IMG/VR virus record: IMGVR_UViG_3300020202_000062
Span: 1-64,000 of that record
DNA: 64,000 nucleotides
Source of the DNA: a virus
Direction: 5' to 3' (one strand)
The stretch's first letter is position 1. Each line of letters begins with the position of its first letter. The translations under genes and the position numbers were made by a program. Positions 11,218-45,674 of this stretch are shown here, one piece after another. The notes beneath the pieces are model-generated. The model saw nothing but the letters and a program-made list of their open reading frames with translations. It had not been told where the DNA came from and made no database searches.

Positions 11218-11592
11218 GGGGCCGACAGGCATCGACTTCGGTAAACTGAGTATCGATTTGCAACCCGAGTTCGTTGACAGACTCGTTAAACAGTTGACAA
11301 AAAACAAATGCAGATGAGAACCTGCTAGTTGCTGCCTAGTCTTCGGATTAGTAAACAGTAACTCTGTTAGTCCAAGAGACCGAACGGGGCTTGATCCAAA
11401 TGCCTGGCAACAGAATTGGATTTGACAAGCGGGAAAGACCCTTGACTCTGAGGAAAAGACTCCAGTGACTTCTAGGAATGAGACTAGACGAACGAGACCC
11501 GCTCGGTGCTAGCGTCAAGGCAGAACTCGGGAATGGTTGTATCGGAAAGATATGATGGCCGAAACACGGGGGTTCGATTCCCCCCGGCTCCA
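11218..11592 (+). ncRNA. ssrA: tmRNA
   Basis: GGGGCCG/CGGCTCC-A acceptor with G3:U70; T arm; tag ORF 11310-11339 ADENLLVAA*. Confidence 0.95.
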
Positions 11593-11595
11593 CTT

Positions 11596-21903: not shown

Positions 21904-23133
21904 GTGAGTGAACCATTCGTAGCAGTTCCCATGGAGGAACTCAATTACTTCTGGGTCATCGAAGATGAGGTACCTTGCTTCATCGGTGACGTAGAAGACA
22001 TCACCAAGCACGCCGACACCTACGGTTATGAGATCTACTACGTTCTCGCTAACCGTGAGGTGACTACGAAGGGGGCAAACAATGTCGTCCATACTTCGTA
22101 CGAGCCAAGCACCTGGAAGGTTATCAACACCTTTGTCGGTCGCGCCATAGTCCCAGCAGATGGTGAAATCGCTCTTACTACTCTTGAGACCAACGCATGG
22201 TACAGCCTGCCGAAGATCCCGTGGGAACTAGTTCAGCGCATCGACACATTCTTCCGTGCAGTTGACAAGAAGCACTCGACTGAGTCTATTGTCATCCTCA
22301 CCTTTGATTCGACTAAGGACGATTCATCTGGTTGGGGTGTCTTGGTACCAAACCAGGAGAACTCAGCCGTAGATTGTGATTACGATCCCACCAGTGTGGC
22401 CGAGGCTAAGTCTGAGGCTGGCGAGCACATCAACATCGTAGGCTCAGTACATAGCCATCCCGATATGTCAGCCTATGCATCACACACTGACCACAAGGAT
22501 CAGGCCACCTTCCCTGGTATTCACATCACGCACGGCTGGTCTAACAAGACCGGTGGCGTTACTGAATACCACATCGAGTTCATGATGGGTGGTTACACCT
22601 GGGAGTTCAAGCCAGAGCAGGTATTCGCCAACATGCCACAGCCCGAGATCGTCGTAGACGAAGAGATCGAGGAGTGGATGTCTAAGGTGAAGCCAGCGAC
22701 GAAGACCTTCCCAAAAGCTGGGAGTGGCACCTTTGGCTCGACTTCTAGCCCTGGCGGCCACTCTTCGGGCTCTGGTAACGCTGCGCTAACTCGCATCACG
22801 TTACCCTCCGATGCTCCTAGCCTTGATGATACGATCATCATTGGTGAGATTGCTAGGGACTCGCGTAACTGCTTGCTTTGTGATGGGCTACTAATCGGTC
22901 CAGAACTGGACAAGCGTCGTTGCTTGTCTTGCCACTCGTATCTGCTTCTCCCAGAAGAGACCATCGCCAACCTCCTTGAGGTTCAGGCTGAGTATAAACT
23001 CTTCGCATGGGAGATCGATCCTAGCCAGAAGCCAGATAAGGCTATTGTCATTTGGCGGAAGACCGAGGATGGCAAGAACGTATACGAGAATGTCTACACT
23101 CCTGAATCTGAGTCAACCCTGGGAAAATCCTAA
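21904..23133 (+). CDS. JAB/MPN+ metallo-isopeptidase
   Basis: E...VGSVHSHPDMSAYASHTD (HxH-x7-S-x2-D). Confidence 0.9.
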   Translation: MSEPFVAVPMEELNYFWVIEDEVPCFIGDVEDITKHADTYGYEIYYVLANREVTTKGANNVVHTSYEPSTWKVINTFVGRAIVPADGEIALTTLETNAWYSLPKIPWELVQRIDTFFRAVDKKHSTESIVILTFDSTKDDSSGWGVLVPNQENSAVDCDYDPTSVAEAKSEAGEHINIVGSVHSHPDMSAYASHTDHKDQATFPGIHITHGWSNKTGGVTEYHIEFMMGGYTWEFKPEQVFANMPQPEIVVDEEIEEWMSKVKPATKTFPKAGSGTFGSTSSPGGHSSGSGNAALTRITLPSDAPSLDDTIIIGEIARDSRNCLLCDGLLIGPELDKRRCLSCHSYLLLPEETIANLLEVQAEYKLFAWEIDPSQKPDKAIVIWRKTEDGKNVYENVYTPESESTLGKS

Positions 23134-23777
23134 GGTGGCTCTCTAGGACAGGTGGATCCTCCGAGGGTCGGGAATATCTTTCCGGTCCCGGAGGGTCTAT
23201 CCTAGACGTAGGCTTCTGCGTAGAGTGCGGCGAACTGACCGAAGGTGATGGTCCAGAAGACAGTCTATGCCCTAGTTGCTGGAAAGAACTACGCCCAGCA
23301 CAAGAAGCATTTGATTGGGAGTTTCAGTGCGATGAATGTCAAGAGCCTGTGGAGTTTGCTTCACTTCTCTGTCGCTCATGCAAGTATGTATTCCCAACTG
23401 ACCACTGGACTGGTTGGACTAACCTTAGTGCAGAGGCAGTAAGACAAGCAGAGCCACCTCCCTTCGAAATAGATCCATCAGAGATCTACGACTATATGTT
23501 GTGCTGTAACGAGTCCCAGTGGGATTGTCAGTGCGAAGGCAGACAGAAGATCTCCTGGGATATGCGGAATGATGTTCCCAGAGAAGTCATGCAGAGTGCA
23601 TACAAACTAAACTCCAGTTGTATGGGGTGCGAGTTCTACTACACCCCAGCCTGCATGCCCTTCCGTGCCTGGATAAAGAACACATTGCTCACCGGCGAAG
23701 TCGGTGTACAAATCACTACTTGTAGCGCCTTCAAAGCAGATGAGACCTATGGTGCATATGCTTTTGAGTATGTATAA
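23121..23777 (+). CDS. Cys-rich extension of JAB reached by -1 frameshift at GGGAAAA
   Basis: -1 frame is open from 23121 to 23777 with no ATG/GTG/TTG before 23349; CVEC, CPSC, CDEC, CRSC. Confidence 0.75.
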   Translation, partial: GKILRWLSRTGGSSEGREYLSGPGGSILDVGFCVECGELTEGDGPEDSLCPSCWKELRPAQEAFDWEFQCDECQEPVEFASLLCRSCKYVFPTDHWTGWTNLSAEAVRQAEPPPFEIDPSEIYDYMLCCNESQWDCQCEGRQKISWDMRNDVPREVMQSAYKLNSSCMGCEFYYTPACMPFRAWIKNTLLTGEVGVQITTCSAFKADETYGAYAFEYV

Positions 23778-43106: not shown

Positions 43107-43895
43107 ATGCGAATCATGATGGCAGGCGACACACATAGCAACTTTGAGCAGTGGGAGTACCTATTCCCCATCGCTAAGGACCTTAACGTTGATGTCATCA
43201 TGCAACTCGGAGACTTTGGATACTGGGCGCACACCAAGGGTGGACTTAACCACCTTGATGCTCTACACGATCTTGCTGTAGAGTACGATATCCCAATCTA
43301 CTGGCTGGATGGCAACCACGAGAACCATGTGCACCTACGGGTGAACAGGATCGCAGTATGGAATATGTTCTGTCTTATGGCAGGCGTAGATCCTGGGCCA
43401 TTCGTCCCGATCCGCGGCACGCATATTGTGCACACGCCGCGGGGTGCAACCTGGGAGTGGGACGGCGTTAAGTTCCTAGCAGTTGGCGGTGCGTTCAGTA
43501 TCGACAGAGGCTGGAGAGATGTTGGGGAGTCCTTCTGGTTTGAAGAGGAACTCACTGACGCTGAAGCAGACTATGCTTCTAGAGTTGGGAAGGTCGATGT
43601 GCTGGTGTCACACGACGTTCCGATGGGCACGGATATGGCGTACATGTTCATCCGACAGGGTAGGTCGTACAGACCTATTCCGCAGGCTGAACCTAACCGC
43701 CGACGCTTGAGGCAGGTGGTCGAGGCCACGAAGCCTAACTACATATACCATGGCCATTACCATATCTGCTATAAGAACTACCTCGAACTTAATAGCGGAC
43801 ACACCATTGTCGTCATGGGCCTCGGTGCTGATGGGATGGAACAGGATTCCTGGACTATTCTTGACACTGAGGACTTGACAAATCCGGTTGGATAG
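43107..43895 (+). CDS. calcineurin-like metallophosphoesterase
   Basis: GDTH, GDFG, DGNHE, SHD, HGHYH. Confidence 0.92.
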   Translation: MRIMMAGDTHSNFEQWEYLFPIAKDLNVDVIMQLGDFGYWAHTKGGLNHLDALHDLAVEYDIPIYWLDGNHENHVHLRVNRIAVWNMFCLMAGVDPGPFVPIRGTHIVHTPRGATWEWDGVKFLAVGGAFSIDRGWRDVGESFWFEEELTDAEADYASRVGKVDVLVSHDVPMGTDMAYMFIRQGRSYRPIPQAEPNRRRLRQVVEATKPNYIYHGHYHICYKNYLELNSGHTIVVMGLGADGMEQDSWTILDTEDLTNPVG

Positions 43896-43903
43896 TTTAC
43901 TAT
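43875..43903 (+). promoter_or_regulatory. sigma70/SigA-type promoter
   Basis: TTGACA-N17-TACTAT upstream of the Pth-like gene. Confidence 0.75.
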
Positions 43904-43935
43904 CAATAGACCGATGAGAAAAGGAAACACAAGAA

Positions 43936-44277
43936 ATGGAAAACACGTAGATTTCTAAACTGTATGTCATCACAAGATCAGACTTCAGTTGCGGCTATCA
44001 AGTAGCACAGTCTGTTCACGGTGGCATGGCATGGGCTATGGAAAAGTCCCATTTGCTAGATGAATGGTCAGGGACTGTAGTCTGTGTAACAGTAGAGTCT
44101 GAAGCCGATCTATATTGGTGGGCTTCTGAACTCGAATTACGTGGTCAAGAGGTATCCATTTTTAGAGAGCCAGACATTGGTGATCAACTAAGTTGCATTG
44201 CTGTTCTTCTGAATCAGGAGCAGGCACAGTGGCTTTGTAGGTTGCCCTTGGCTGGCTCTTGTGGTTTACCACCATAG
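43936..44277 (+). CDS. Pth2-like peptidyl-tRNA hydrolase with in-frame TAG at codon 5
   Basis: MENT*ISKLYVITRSDFSCGYQVAQSVHG...TVVCV...FREPDIGDQLSCIA...LPLA; AAGGA SD. Confidence 0.8.
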
Positions 44278-44306
44278 GTATCGTCTCCGAAAGGAGGTGA
44301 TACAGT

Positions 44307-44600
44307 ATGACTGAAATGGAACTTAAGGCTGAAGTAGCATCACTCCGAAATGAGTTAGCAACACTTCGTGACCTGATTGCAGGCGGCGATCTAGCGTCTG
44401 GCGTAAACCGCCTAGCACAAAAGATCGAACGTCAGCGTCAGGCTCTTGATAGACTGCACACCCGTGTGGTCAATCAGCGTTTCCACCTTCGCACTCTCGA
44501 TGAGTTAGGCCGCGGTCTAACCAAGGATGAGTACGAAACGGCTCGTGCAGCAGTGACTAACGAGCAGGTTAAGGATCGTCTAGTAGGCGTCATCGCTTAA
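44307..44600 (+). CDS. coiled-coil hypothetical protein
   Basis: AAGGAGGTGAT SD. Confidence 0.8.
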   Translation: MTEMELKAEVASLRNELATLRDLIAGGDLASGVNRLAQKIERQRQALDRLHTRVVNQRFHLRTLDELGRGLTKDEYETARAAVTNEQVKDRLVGVIA

Positions 44601-44662: not shown

Positions 44663-44762
44663 GCCCCGGTAGCTTAACGGTAAAGCAGCGGATAAAGAGA
44701 CTCAGTATCTCACGGTTTGGGTCTCTCCGTCGATGGTGGTTCGAATCCACCCTGGGGCACCA
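44663..44762 (+). ncRNA. tRNA-like RNA with a long hairpin replacing the anticodon loop
   Basis: Intact acceptor, D and T arms and ACCA; insert GAGACTCAG/TTGGGTCTC. Confidence 0.75.
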
Positions 44763-44763
44763 T

Positions 44764-44831
44764 GGAAGAAATAGTGTAACCCGGTAGCACAGGCGACGGC
44801 CAGGCGAGGTTCGAATCCTCATCTTCCACCA
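44764..44831 (+). ncRNA. tRNA-like RNA with truncated anticodon arm
   Basis: GGAAGA/TCTTCC-ACCA; D arm; GGC-GACG-GCC; T arm. Confidence 0.7.
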
Positions 44832-44832
44832 C

Positions 44833-44939
44833 GCCCCGATAGCTTAGTGGGAAAGCCTCTTTCTGGATCCTGTGAGGCTAGCAGGGAAAGGTTAGAGTAG
44901 CGCGCAAACACGGAGGTTCGATTCCTCCTCGGGGTACCA
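44833..44939 (+). ncRNA. tRNA-like RNA with expanded anticodon/variable region
   Basis: GCCCCGA/TCGGGGT-ACCA; D and T arms intact; ~45-nt insert. Confidence 0.75.
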
Positions 44940-44940
44940 A

Positions 44941-45082
44941 GAGCCTGTAGTGCACGCCGAAGCGTGACGTAACATGAGTAGCCATACGAATCCTAGGCCA
45001 CCCTTATGGCGAGGGGTGTTACGGTAGTGGGAGCACGACCGCCAGAAAGCGGTTAGGATGGGTTCGAATCCCATCAGGTTCA
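44941..45082 (+). ncRNA. tRNA-like RNA with structured D-loop insert
   Basis: GAGCCTG/CAGGTTC-A; GTGC/GCAC D stem enclosing ~80 nt; 6-nt anticodon loop. Confidence 0.7.
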
Positions 45083-45597: not shown

Positions 45598-45669
45598 GCT
45601 TCGGTAGTTCAATGGTAGAACAGCGCCCTCTAAAAGCGTATGTTGAGGGTTCGAATCCCTTCCGAGGCG
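45598..45669 (+). tRNA. amber suppressor tRNA (CTA), tRNA-Gln-like body
   Basis: Loop CT-CTA-AA with anticodon at 45630-45632; D arm identical to tRNA-Gln(CTG) at 5283; G73. Confidence 0.85.
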
Positions 45670-45674
45670 CTCAA

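What the first reader, a model, noticed from the sequence alone, without database searches (positions are those of the whole stretch)
43875..44277. Pth2-like gene gated by an amber codon at position 5
Seen: promoter TTGACA-N17-TACTAT, SD AAGGA, then ATG GAA AAC ACG TAG ATT TCT AAA CTG TAT GTC..., continuing into KLYVITRSD...QVAQSVH, the conserved N-terminal Pth2-type motif that the ORF-track start at 44026 would omit. A CUA suppressor tRNA lies 1.3 kb downstream. Inference: full-length enzyme is made only by UAG readthrough, i.e. when the suppressor is abundant or RF1 activity is low; otherwise a 4-aa minigene is made, and minigenes are known to generate peptidyl-tRNA drop-off. This would be a termination-sensing feedback switch analogous to prfB recoding.
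Basis: partly seen in the sequence, partly recalled or inferred. Interest (0 to 1): 0.85.

Follow-up and report, generated by a model that had tools for sequence, protein, structure and literature searches.

The report
Suppressor-tRNA-gated phage Pth2-like gene
A 159-kb phage that uses the normal genetic code has a UAG stop as the fifth codon of a small tRNA-hydrolase-like gene and carries its own UAG-reading tRNA. About 60 distant phages share this layout and change stop and anticodon together, so the enzyme is probably made only when that tRNA overrides the stop.

Summary
An ATG at 43936 with a typical ribosome-binding site is followed by three sense codons and then TAG (43948-43950). The frame then runs straight into the first strand of a Pth2-fold protein (AlphaFold pLDDT 96, TM 0.7-0.77 to solved Pth2 structures). 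The next ordinary start, 44026, would delete strand 1 and most of helix 1.

The TAG is not an error. The two nearest relatives (about 51-55% protein identity) keep it. Of 87 distinct homologous loci, 59 have ATG, 0-9 further sense codons, then TAG or TAA, with no ordinary start before the domain.

Where a suppressor tRNA was found, it matched the stop every time: 36 of 36 TAG with CUA, and 5 of 5 TAA with UUA, in three separate lineages. All are on the same strand. The genome itself uses the standard code, with TAG ending about 30% of ORFs, and I found no other gated gene.

Best reading: synthesis of the hydrolase, and of a coupled 97-aa downstream gene, needs the phage's tRNA-CUA (45598-45670). 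What the circuit is for, whether feedback like prfB or something else, is untested.

I found no paper describing this. This scan has already noted the same layout on other DNA, in at least 147 genomes.

The parts
43875..43903 (+). Sigma-70-like promoter (TTGACA, 17 nt, TACTAT). It overlaps the end of the upstream metallophosphoesterase gene.
   Evidence: 10 of 12 consensus matches. A TTGAC(A/G), 17-18 nt, TA..(A/G)T pair sits at the same place in relatives L029 and L030. The pattern is not enriched genome-wide.
43921..43925 (+). Shine-Dalgarno sequence AAGGA, 10 nt before the leader ATG.
   Evidence: Duplex energy with the anti-SD is -5.8 kcal/mol, the 44th percentile of this genome's genes. 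The ATT (-3.3), CTG (+0.3) and ATG 44026 (-2.3) are all poor.
43936..43950 (+). Leader: ATG, three sense codons, and the gate codon TAG (43948-43950).
   Evidence: The same design occurs in 59 of 87 homologous loci. The nearest relatives keep TAG at codon 5 (L030) or codon 7 (L029).
43951..44277 (+). Body of the Pth2-like protein (108 aa) and its terminal TAG (44275-44277).
   Evidence: Profile against PDB Pth2/Bit1, E 1e-11 to 6e-9. AlphaFold pLDDT 96. Foldseek hits 2zv3, 3erj, 1wn2 and 1q7s with TM 0.7-0.77. PF01981 matches 69 of 78 homologs.
44278..44303 (+). 11-bp hairpin with a GAAA loop. Its 3' arm is the Shine-Dalgarno sequence of the next gene.
   Evidence: dG -17.2 kcal/mol, z -4.3, and 0 of 200 shuffles fold as well. 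Relatives also pair that SD with the end of the Pth2-like ORF.
44307..44600 (+). Downstream 97-aa coiled-coil-like gene, probably translationally coupled to the Pth2-like ORF.
   Evidence: 67% identical homolog directly after the Pth2-like gene in L030, and 76% over the part held in L029. No Pfam or PHROG family.
45598..45670 (+). Amber-suppressor tRNA (anticodon CUA, loop CUCUAAA), same strand.
   Evidence: ARAGORN. Rfam tRNA 63.7 bits. Cloverleaf fold with one C-A mismatch at the foot of the anticodon stem.

Best explanation
The TAG at codon 5 is a deliberate, conserved stop. Ribosomes start at the ATG at 43936, the only start with a normal ribosome-binding site. They make the Pth2-fold hydrolase only when the phage's own amber-suppressor tRNA (45598-45670) decodes the UAG instead of release factor 1. 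Otherwise a 4-residue peptide is released.

The ribosome-binding site of the next gene (44307-44600) is locked in a hairpin directly behind the Pth2-like ORF. The same gate therefore probably controls that gene too, by translational coupling.

Hydrolase gene and suppressor tRNA form a two-part module that many large phages carry. The amount of hydrolase made would follow the amount of active suppressor tRNA.

Shown by sequence and comparison:
- the fold
- the lack of another usable start
- conservation of the stop
- the stop/anticodon match
- standard code in this genome

Inferred:
- that the tRNA is made and charged
- that readthrough occurs
- that the protein hydrolyses peptidyl- or acyl-tRNA
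- the purpose of the coupling
For: 1. The domain starts right after the stop. Strand 1 is residues 2-9 of the post-TAG body, and ATG 44026 would remove strand 1 and most of helix 1.
2. SD strength and spacing fit ATG 43936 and none of the later candidates.
3. The nearest relatives, at about 51-55% protein identity, keep the TAG, the flanking genes and the promoter.
4. Of 87 distinct homologous loci, 59 have ATG, 0-9 further sense codons, then a stop, with no ATG, GTG or TTG before the domain. The stops are 53 TAG, 6 TAA and 0 TGA. 82 of the 87 have at least 70 uninterrupted residues after the gate, so the stop is position-specific.
5. Anticodon matches: TAG with CUA in 36 of 36, TAA with UUA in 4 of 4, plus L026, whose UUA tRNA lies 5.4 kb upstream. 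That makes 41 of 41, all on the same strand.
6. On the protein tree the stop type changes three times, and the anticodon changes with it. Homologous tRNAs sharing acceptor and T arms differ at position 34, C or U, in step with TAG or TAA.
7. The base after the stop is a purine in 58 of 59. From my own knowledge of E. coli work (Bossi; Miller and Albertini, 1983), that context favours suppression.
8. This genome uses the standard code. Coding density is 92.8%, TAG ends 59 of 195 ORFs, no other gene is split by TAG, and there is no other SD-ATG-short-leader-TAG candidate.
9. 11 of 18 homologs with an ordinary start still have a suppressor tRNA beside them, so gene and tRNA are linked beyond the gate.
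Against: - Nothing is experimental.
- The tRNA has a C-A mismatch at pair 31-39.
- TAG ends about 30% of this phage's genes, and TAA is the main stop in the TAA-gated phages. A strong suppressor should therefore be costly. Yet there is no enrichment of back-up stops after TAG-ending genes (p 0.67).
- The codon after the stop is (A/G)TN in 51 of 59. That also fits weak near-cognate re-initiation.
- In cluster C mycobacteriophages the SD spacing fits the GTG after the TAG.
- With only three stop/anticodon switches, no formal test reaches significance.
- The window's protein alone misses the Pfam PTH2 threshold. The Lys of the archaeal GKGK motif aligns to Tyr, so the enzyme's substrate may differ from that of Pth2.
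Confidence: 0.8

Rival explanations
1. Termination followed by re-initiation. The 4-codon ORF is a leader. After release at UAG the ribosome restarts at the adjacent ATT (43951), a near-cognate start. The suppressor tRNA is a neighbour for functional reasons only.
For: - The codon after the stop is ATT, GTA, GTT, ATA or ATC in 51 of 59 gated loci.
- ATT is a listed table-11 start.
- In cluster C mycobacteriophages a GTG with well-spaced SD follows the TAG.
- Several loci have TAG directly followed by ATG or GTG.
Against: - It does not explain why the stop is TAG with CUA tRNAs and TAA with UUA tRNAs in 41 of 41 cases, nor why TGA is never used.
- GTA and GTT are very poor starts.
- 8 of 59 loci have a following codon that is not start-like.
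- The SD lies 25 nt from the ATT in the window.
Confidence: 0.1
2. Tolerated nonsense mutation or decaying gene. Because the phage carries a suppressor, a TAG in a dispensable N-terminal tail is nearly neutral and has no regulatory role.
For: - The tail before strand 1 is not conserved in sequence.
- Suppressor carriage would blunt selection against TAG.
Against: - Neutral stops would be scattered over many genes and positions. Here they sit only in the first 1-10 codons of this one gene family, across lineages down to about 30% identity.
- No internal stops occur in 82 of 87 bodies.
- No other gene of this genome is split by TAG.
Confidence: 0.04
3. Genome-wide reassignment of TAG (code 15 type), with this gene simply one recoded gene.
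For: Phage-encoded CUA tRNAs are the hallmark of TAG-recoded phages (bioRxiv 10.1101/2021.08.26.457843). One relative's gene was called under TAG=Q.
Against: - Under the standard code 92.8% of the genome is covered by ORFs.
- Reading TAG as sense adds nothing (93.0%) and merges genes.
- TAG ends 59 of 195 ORFs.
- All same-frame ORF pairs across a TAG have their own starts.
- 10-kb loci of relatives show no gain specific to TAG, and TAA is the main stop in TAA-gated phages.
Confidence: 0.02
4. Sequencing or assembly error in a metagenomic contig.
For: The contig is a single metagenome assembly, and reads could not be inspected.
Against: Independent assemblies of relatives carry the same stop at the same place.
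Confidence: 0.01

Closest known systems
Peptidyl-tRNA hydrolase 2 (Pth2, PF01981; PDB 2zv3, 3erj, 1wn2, 1xty, human Bit1 1q7s)
   Same: Same alpha/beta fold (TM 0.7-0.77). Shared Q..H motif in helix 1 and an acidic residue at the DAG position. PTH2 has already been noted in jumbo phages (PMC7824862).
   Different: A separate phage subfamily with the signature (R)EPDIGDQLT. Two residues are deleted in the GKGK loop, with Tyr where the Lys aligns. Its activity and substrate are untested. No cellular Pth2 is known to carry an early stop.
Stop-codon-recoded phages with suppressor tRNAs (TAG read as Gln, 'code 15'; bioRxiv 10.1101/2021.08.26.457843, PMC9523058)
   Same: A phage-encoded CUA tRNA lets ribosomes pass in-frame TAG. 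This was proposed as a way to time gene expression.
   Different: There, TAG is scattered through many, mostly late, genes and is no longer the usual stop. Here the genome keeps the standard code, and one small gene carries one stop at a fixed place near its start. TAA/UUA versions also exist.
prfB (RF2) autoregulation through an in-frame UGA, and infC (IF3) through its AUU start (own knowledge)
   Same: A translation factor gene carries, near its 5' end, a signal whose decoding depends on the state of the translation machinery.
   Different: prfB uses a +1 frameshift, and the sensed factor is its own product. Here the stop is read by a separate, co-encoded tRNA. Whether the hydrolase feeds back on that tRNA is unknown.
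Lambda bar and synthetic minigenes (PMC2490762; early drop-off PMC10192219)
   Same: An SD-ATG followed by a very short ORF of 2-8 codons and a stop. Such ORFs release peptidyl-tRNA that Pth must recycle.
   Different: Minigenes stand alone and are harmful by-products. Here the mini-ORF is in frame with, and fused by readthrough to, a hydrolase gene.
Orphan suppressor tRNAs of standard-code jumbo phages (XacN1, PMC5852040)
   Same: CUA tRNAs in a phage that uses TAG as a stop.
   Different: The authors read through all terminal TAGs and found no target. The layout here offers a target, an early TAG in the Pth2-like gene. XacN1's own homolog, however, is fused to a longer ORF without a gate.

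Membership tests
Pth2 (PF01981) | Sequence match to the family model above threshold | tested here: inconclusive
   The window protein alone gets no Pfam hit at E 0.01. However, 69 of 78 aligned homologs hit PF01981, best 9e-12. A family profile hits solved Pth2 chains at E 1e-11 to 1e-5.
Pth2 (PF01981) | Pth2 alpha/beta fold starting with strand 1 at the N-terminus | tested here: met
   AlphaFold pLDDT 96.2, pTM 0.88. Foldseek top hits are all Pth2, with prob 1.00 and TM 0.69-0.77.
Pth2 (PF01981) | Active-site residues described for archaeal Pth2 (Lys of GKGK, Asp of DAG; recalled from Fromant et al. 2005, not re-read) | tested here: inconclusive
   An acidic residue is kept (E of EPD aligns to the D of DAG). 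The Lys position aligns to Tyr after a two-residue deletion. His of the Q..H motif is invariant.
Pth2 (PF01981) | Hydrolysis of peptidyl-tRNA | not testable with these tools
   Needs an enzyme assay or complementation of a pth(ts) strain.
Programmed stop-codon readthrough by a cognate suppressor tRNA | In-frame stop conserved at the same place in diverged homologs | tested here: met
   59 of 87 loci, including the two nearest relatives.
Programmed stop-codon readthrough by a cognate suppressor tRNA | A tRNA whose anticodon pairs with that stop is encoded nearby, and the two change together | tested here: met
   41 of 41 matches. There are three TAG/TAA switches, each with a C34/U34 switch.
Programmed stop-codon readthrough by a cognate suppressor tRNA | Protein product spanning the stop | not testable with these tools
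   Needs mass spectrometry or a reporter assay.
Genome-wide TAG reassignment (code 15) | Many genes interrupted by TAG, and coding density rises when TAG is read as sense | tested here: not met
   Coverage is 92.8% against 93.0%. TAG ends 59 of 195 ORFs. There are no split genes.
prfB-type autoregulatory recoding | Recoding signal early in the gene of a translation factor | tested here: met
   The stop is at codon 5 here, and at codon 2-11 in relatives.
prfB-type autoregulatory recoding | The gene product changes the efficiency of its own recoding event | not testable with these tools
   Would need assays of the hydrolase on charged or peptidyl suppressor tRNA, and dose-response reporters.
bar-type minigene | SD, ATG, 1-7 sense codons, stop | tested here: met
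bar-type minigene | Peptidyl-tRNA drop-off and tRNA starvation when Pth is limiting | not testable with these tools
   Needs expression in a pth(ts) host.

The most novel reading that the evidence does not exclude
Hydrolase and suppressor tRNA form a closed control loop. The Pth2-like enzyme acts on the suppressor tRNA itself, in its charged or short-peptidyl form, and its own synthesis needs that tRNA to read the early stop. The pair would then hold stop-codon readthrough at a set level in a phage, and a host, that still use that codon as a stop. This would be a tRNA-based counterpart of prfB autoregulation. It would also explain orphan suppressor tRNAs in standard-code phages.
Probability: 0.2. 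Interest if true: 0.9.

Novelty: new variant of a known kind. Interest (0 to 1): 0.8.

Why it matters
Suppressor tRNAs in phages have so far been explained only by genome-wide recoding. In standard-code phages their targets were unknown (PMC5852040). This layout names a specific, conserved target: one stop at the very start of a translation-recycling enzyme. Stop and anticodon co-vary as base pairs do in an RNA helix.

It predicts a simple, portable genetic switch made of a leader plus a tRNA. It links three phage-borne translation parts: suppressor tRNA, Pth2, and in this genome a tmRNA. It also shows that gene callers routinely truncate or miss this gene. It is directly testable with reporters and with cultured relatives.

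Tried and rejected
- A near-identity DNA search of 50,697 phage records found nothing. The word-indexed protein search found only the window's own truncated call, so no close relative exists there. Relatives came from the exhaustive HMMER search and contig look-ups instead.
I did not try another route.
- Genome-wide recoding was rejected.
- Other amber-gated genes in this genome: none convincing. SD-ATG-short-leader-stop counts are TAG 5, TAA 2, TGA 4, and the other TAG cases lie antisense to the gene blocks or have an ordinary start right after.
- A stimulatory mRNA structure at the gate was not found (z +0.62).
- Back-up stops behind TAG-ending genes are not enriched.
- TAG followed by A is not special among this genome's terminators (16 of 59).
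- The sigma-70 pattern is not enriched genome-wide.
- An independent-pairs sign test on the tree has too few switches for significance.
- The amino-acid identity of the tRNA stays undecided. Its D arm, anticodon stem and variable loop resemble the phage's own tRNA-Gln(CUG), while its CUCUAAA loop is Trp/Tyr-suppressor-like.
- Looking for a cultured phage with a clear-cut gate gave mainly cluster C mycobacteriophages, whose version is ambiguous, and uncultured huge phages.

Full report
**What is in the window**

The window is the first 64 kb of a 158,928-bp IMG/VR phage contig. The contig has 48% G+C and CheckV estimates it at 75% complete. It carries 26 tRNA genes and a tmRNA gene.

- TTGACA (43875-43880), 17 nt, TACTAT (43898-43903)
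- AAGGA (43921-43925)
- ATG (43936), then GAA AAC ACG, then TAG (43948-43950)
- ATT TCT AAA CTG TAT and onward, in frame, to a terminal TAG at 44275-44277

The ORF list starts this frame only at 44026. A public gene call starts it even later, giving 79 aa. A tRNA with anticodon CUA lies at 45598-45670 on the same strand.

**What the protein is**

The 108 residues after the TAG match phage proteins annotated as peptidyl-tRNA hydrolase from residue 1-4 onward.
- Profiles built from homologs hit solved Pth2 structures, including human Bit1, at E 1e-11 to 6e-9. Those alignments begin at the KLY motif.
- PF01981 matches 69 of 78 aligned homologs, although not the window's protein on its own.
- An AlphaFold model built on 78 sequences has pLDDT 96. 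Its best structural matches are all Pth2, with TM 0.69-0.77.
- Strand 1 is residues 2-9 and helix 1 is residues 14-31. A start at 44026, which is residue 26, would destroy the fold.

The subfamily is distinct. It has the signature (R)EPDIGDQLT and a two-residue deletion in the GKGK loop, with Tyr where the Lys aligns. The fold is therefore established, but the substrate is not.

**Where translation starts**

The anti-SD duplex energy is -5.8 kcal/mol for ATG 43936, which is typical for this genome (44th percentile of its genes). The other candidates score as follows:
- ATT after the stop: -3.3
- CTG: +0.3
- ATG 44026: -2.3

Homologs with ordinary starts begin 2-8 residues before KLY, which is where this ATG lies.

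**Not an error, and conserved**

No close relative exists in the phage records or the word-indexed protein search. The exhaustive search found two relatives at about 51% identity. Their contigs read ATG, three sense codons, TAG, ATT TCT AAG (L030, the same codon 5), and ATG, five sense codons, TAG, GTA TCA AAG (L029). One of them had been called under TAG=Q.

The flanking metallophosphoesterase (53% identity) and the downstream 97-aa gene (67%) are syntenic. The -35/-10 pair is also kept.

I scanned IMG/VR and JGI metagenomes with a family alignment and added the two assemblies, three mycobacteriophages and the window. This gave 87 distinct loci:
- 59 have an ATG (one has GTG), 0-9 further sense codons (most often one), a stop, and 1-13 codons before the domain, with no ATG, GTG or TTG in between.
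- 9 are ambiguous because a canonical start follows the stop.
- 18 start ordinarily.
- 1 has a longer spacer.

The stops in the 59 are 53 TAG, 6 TAA and no TGA. 82 of the 87 bodies run at least 70 residues without a stop, so the stop is specific to that position. A published huge-phage genome, LR756500.1, shows the same layout with a CUA tRNA 0.8 kb downstream.

**Stop and anticodon change together**

- In the gated loci that hold a suppressor tRNA, TAG goes with CUA in 36 of 36 and TAA with UUA in 4 of 4.
- All 44 suppressor genes are on the gene's strand. They lie 129 to 2,322 nt from the domain's first codon (the K of KLY), often directly behind the gene.
- The gated loci without a suppressor are mostly contigs under 5 kb.
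- For the TAA-gated L026, the rest of the contig held a UUA tRNA 5.4 kb upstream. That brings the total to 41 of 41.
- L023 has no tRNA at all on a contig that is 51% complete.
- On a protein tree the stop type changes three times, and the anticodon changes with it. That is too few events for a sign test.
- Suppressor tRNAs that share acceptor and T arms differ at position 34, C or U, in step with TAG or TAA.

This is the same logic as a compensatory base change. It is hard to reconcile with re-initiation, where any stop would do.

**Context of the stop**

The base after the stop is a purine in 58 of 59. The following codon is ATT (26), GTA (15) or GTT (5). This holds whatever the distance to the domain, so it belongs to the signal and not to the fold. 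From my own knowledge of E. coli genetics, a 3' purine favours amber suppression. The same pattern also resembles near-cognate starts, which keeps the re-initiation rival alive at about 10%. No mRNA structure is predicted at the gate.

**Not a recoded genome**

- Under the standard code, ORFs cover 92.8% of the genome. TAG ends 59 of 195 of them.
- Reading TAG as sense adds nothing.
- Every same-frame ORF pair across a TAG has its own start.
- No other gene shows an SD-ATG-short-leader-TAG design with a lost N-terminus.
- Relatives' 10-kb loci show no gain specific to TAG. In TAA-gated phages TAA is the commonest stop.

The suppressor therefore has to coexist with ordinary use of its codon. 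There is no excess of back-up stops behind TAG-ending genes. This argues for a weak or tightly limited suppressor.

**A second layer: coupling to the next gene**

The Pth2-like ORF also ends in TAG. Directly behind it, 44278-44303 forms an 11-bp GAAA-loop hairpin whose 3' arm is the strong SD of the 97-aa gene (dG -17.2, z -4.3). A ribosome arriving at the terminal TAG would melt it. A readthrough ribosome would stop at a TGA overlapping the next ATG. Relatives also pair that SD with the end of the Pth2-like ORF, and in L029 the two ORFs overlap. The gate at codon 5 thus probably controls both genes. This lead came from another first-stage note on the same stretch, and I checked it here.

**How it most likely works**

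Shown:
- the fold
- the start
- the conserved early stop
- the cognate tRNA and its co-variation with the stop
- standard code in this genome

Inferred:
- The tRNA is expressed and charged.
- It competes with RF1 at codon 5.
- Hydrolase output follows suppressor activity.

11 of 18 ordinary-start homologs still sit beside a suppressor tRNA. Enzyme and tRNA therefore seem to work together regardless of the gate. The enzyme may clear products of suppression and early drop-off (short peptidyl-tRNAs are known to fall off early; PMC10192219, PMC2490762). Or it may act on the suppressor tRNA itself, which would close a prfB-like loop. I put the gate at 0.8 and the closed-loop version at about 0.2.

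**Novelty**

Full-text searches found PTH2 noted in jumbo phages as a likely ribosome-rescue factor (PMC7824862). They also found orphan CUA tRNAs in XacN1, for which the authors could find no target (PMC5852040). No paper linked an early stop in this gene to the suppressor.

Within this scan the same layout has already been reported on other DNA: 225 notes in at least 147 genomes. My tests were made independently on this window's family, and they agree.

Noticed in passing
window 44663-44762 and 44833-44939 (perhaps also 44764-44831 and 44941-45082): There are tRNA-shaped genes here with good acceptor, D and T arms and an encoded CCA, but with 26-33 extra bases in the anticodon arm. Rfam tRNA scores are 55.7 and 43.2 bits. 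ARAGORN finds them only as 'intron' tRNAs, one read as CUA. The first folds into a long hairpin (z -3.9). Whether they decode anything is unclear.
   Followed up: partly
window 11218-11593: The tag reading frame of the phage tmRNA (ADENLLVAA) ends in TAG. Four codons follow, then TAG TAA. In a phage with an amber suppressor, readthrough would lengthen the tag and bury its C-terminal Ala-Ala.
   Followed up: no
window 23112-23777: This frame is open for 79 codons before its first ATG, GTG or TTG, and has no SD at that start. Another first-stage note proposes a -1 frameshift from the preceding JAB gene.
   Followed up: no
whole genome G000: TAG followed by C is almost absent among ORF ends (1 of 59, against T 25, G 17, A 16). 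TAA and TGA show no such gap.
   Followed up: no
L008, L009, L010 (mycobacteriophages Myrna, ScoobyDoobyDoo, IkeLoa): In cluster C mycobacteriophages the annotated GTG start of the peptidyl-tRNA hydrolase gene is directly preceded in frame by (A/G)TG TAG. A CUA tRNA lies 180-250 nt behind the gene in ScoobyDoobyDoo and IkeLoa. In Myrna, ARAGORN reads a CUA tRNA where the record annotates tRNA-Ser. The SD spacing fits the GTG, so the gate is ambiguous there.
   Followed up: partly
L016, L021, L079, L087, L026/L116: Phages with a TAA gate carry an ochre-type tRNA (UUA), although TAA ends 65-75% of the ORFs in the three of these loci long enough to count (L016, L021, L079).
   Followed up: partly
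L011, L111 (Xanthomonas phages Xoo-sp13, XacN1): Here the Pth2-like domain is the C-terminal part of a protein of about 280 aa, with no early stop. XacN1's two CUA tRNAs therefore still lack an obvious target.
   Followed up: partly
window 43107-43895: The upstream gene is a calcineurin-like metallophosphoesterase (PF00149, E 2e-10). It also ends in TAG and is syntenic with the Pth2-like gene in the nearest relative.
   Followed up: partly
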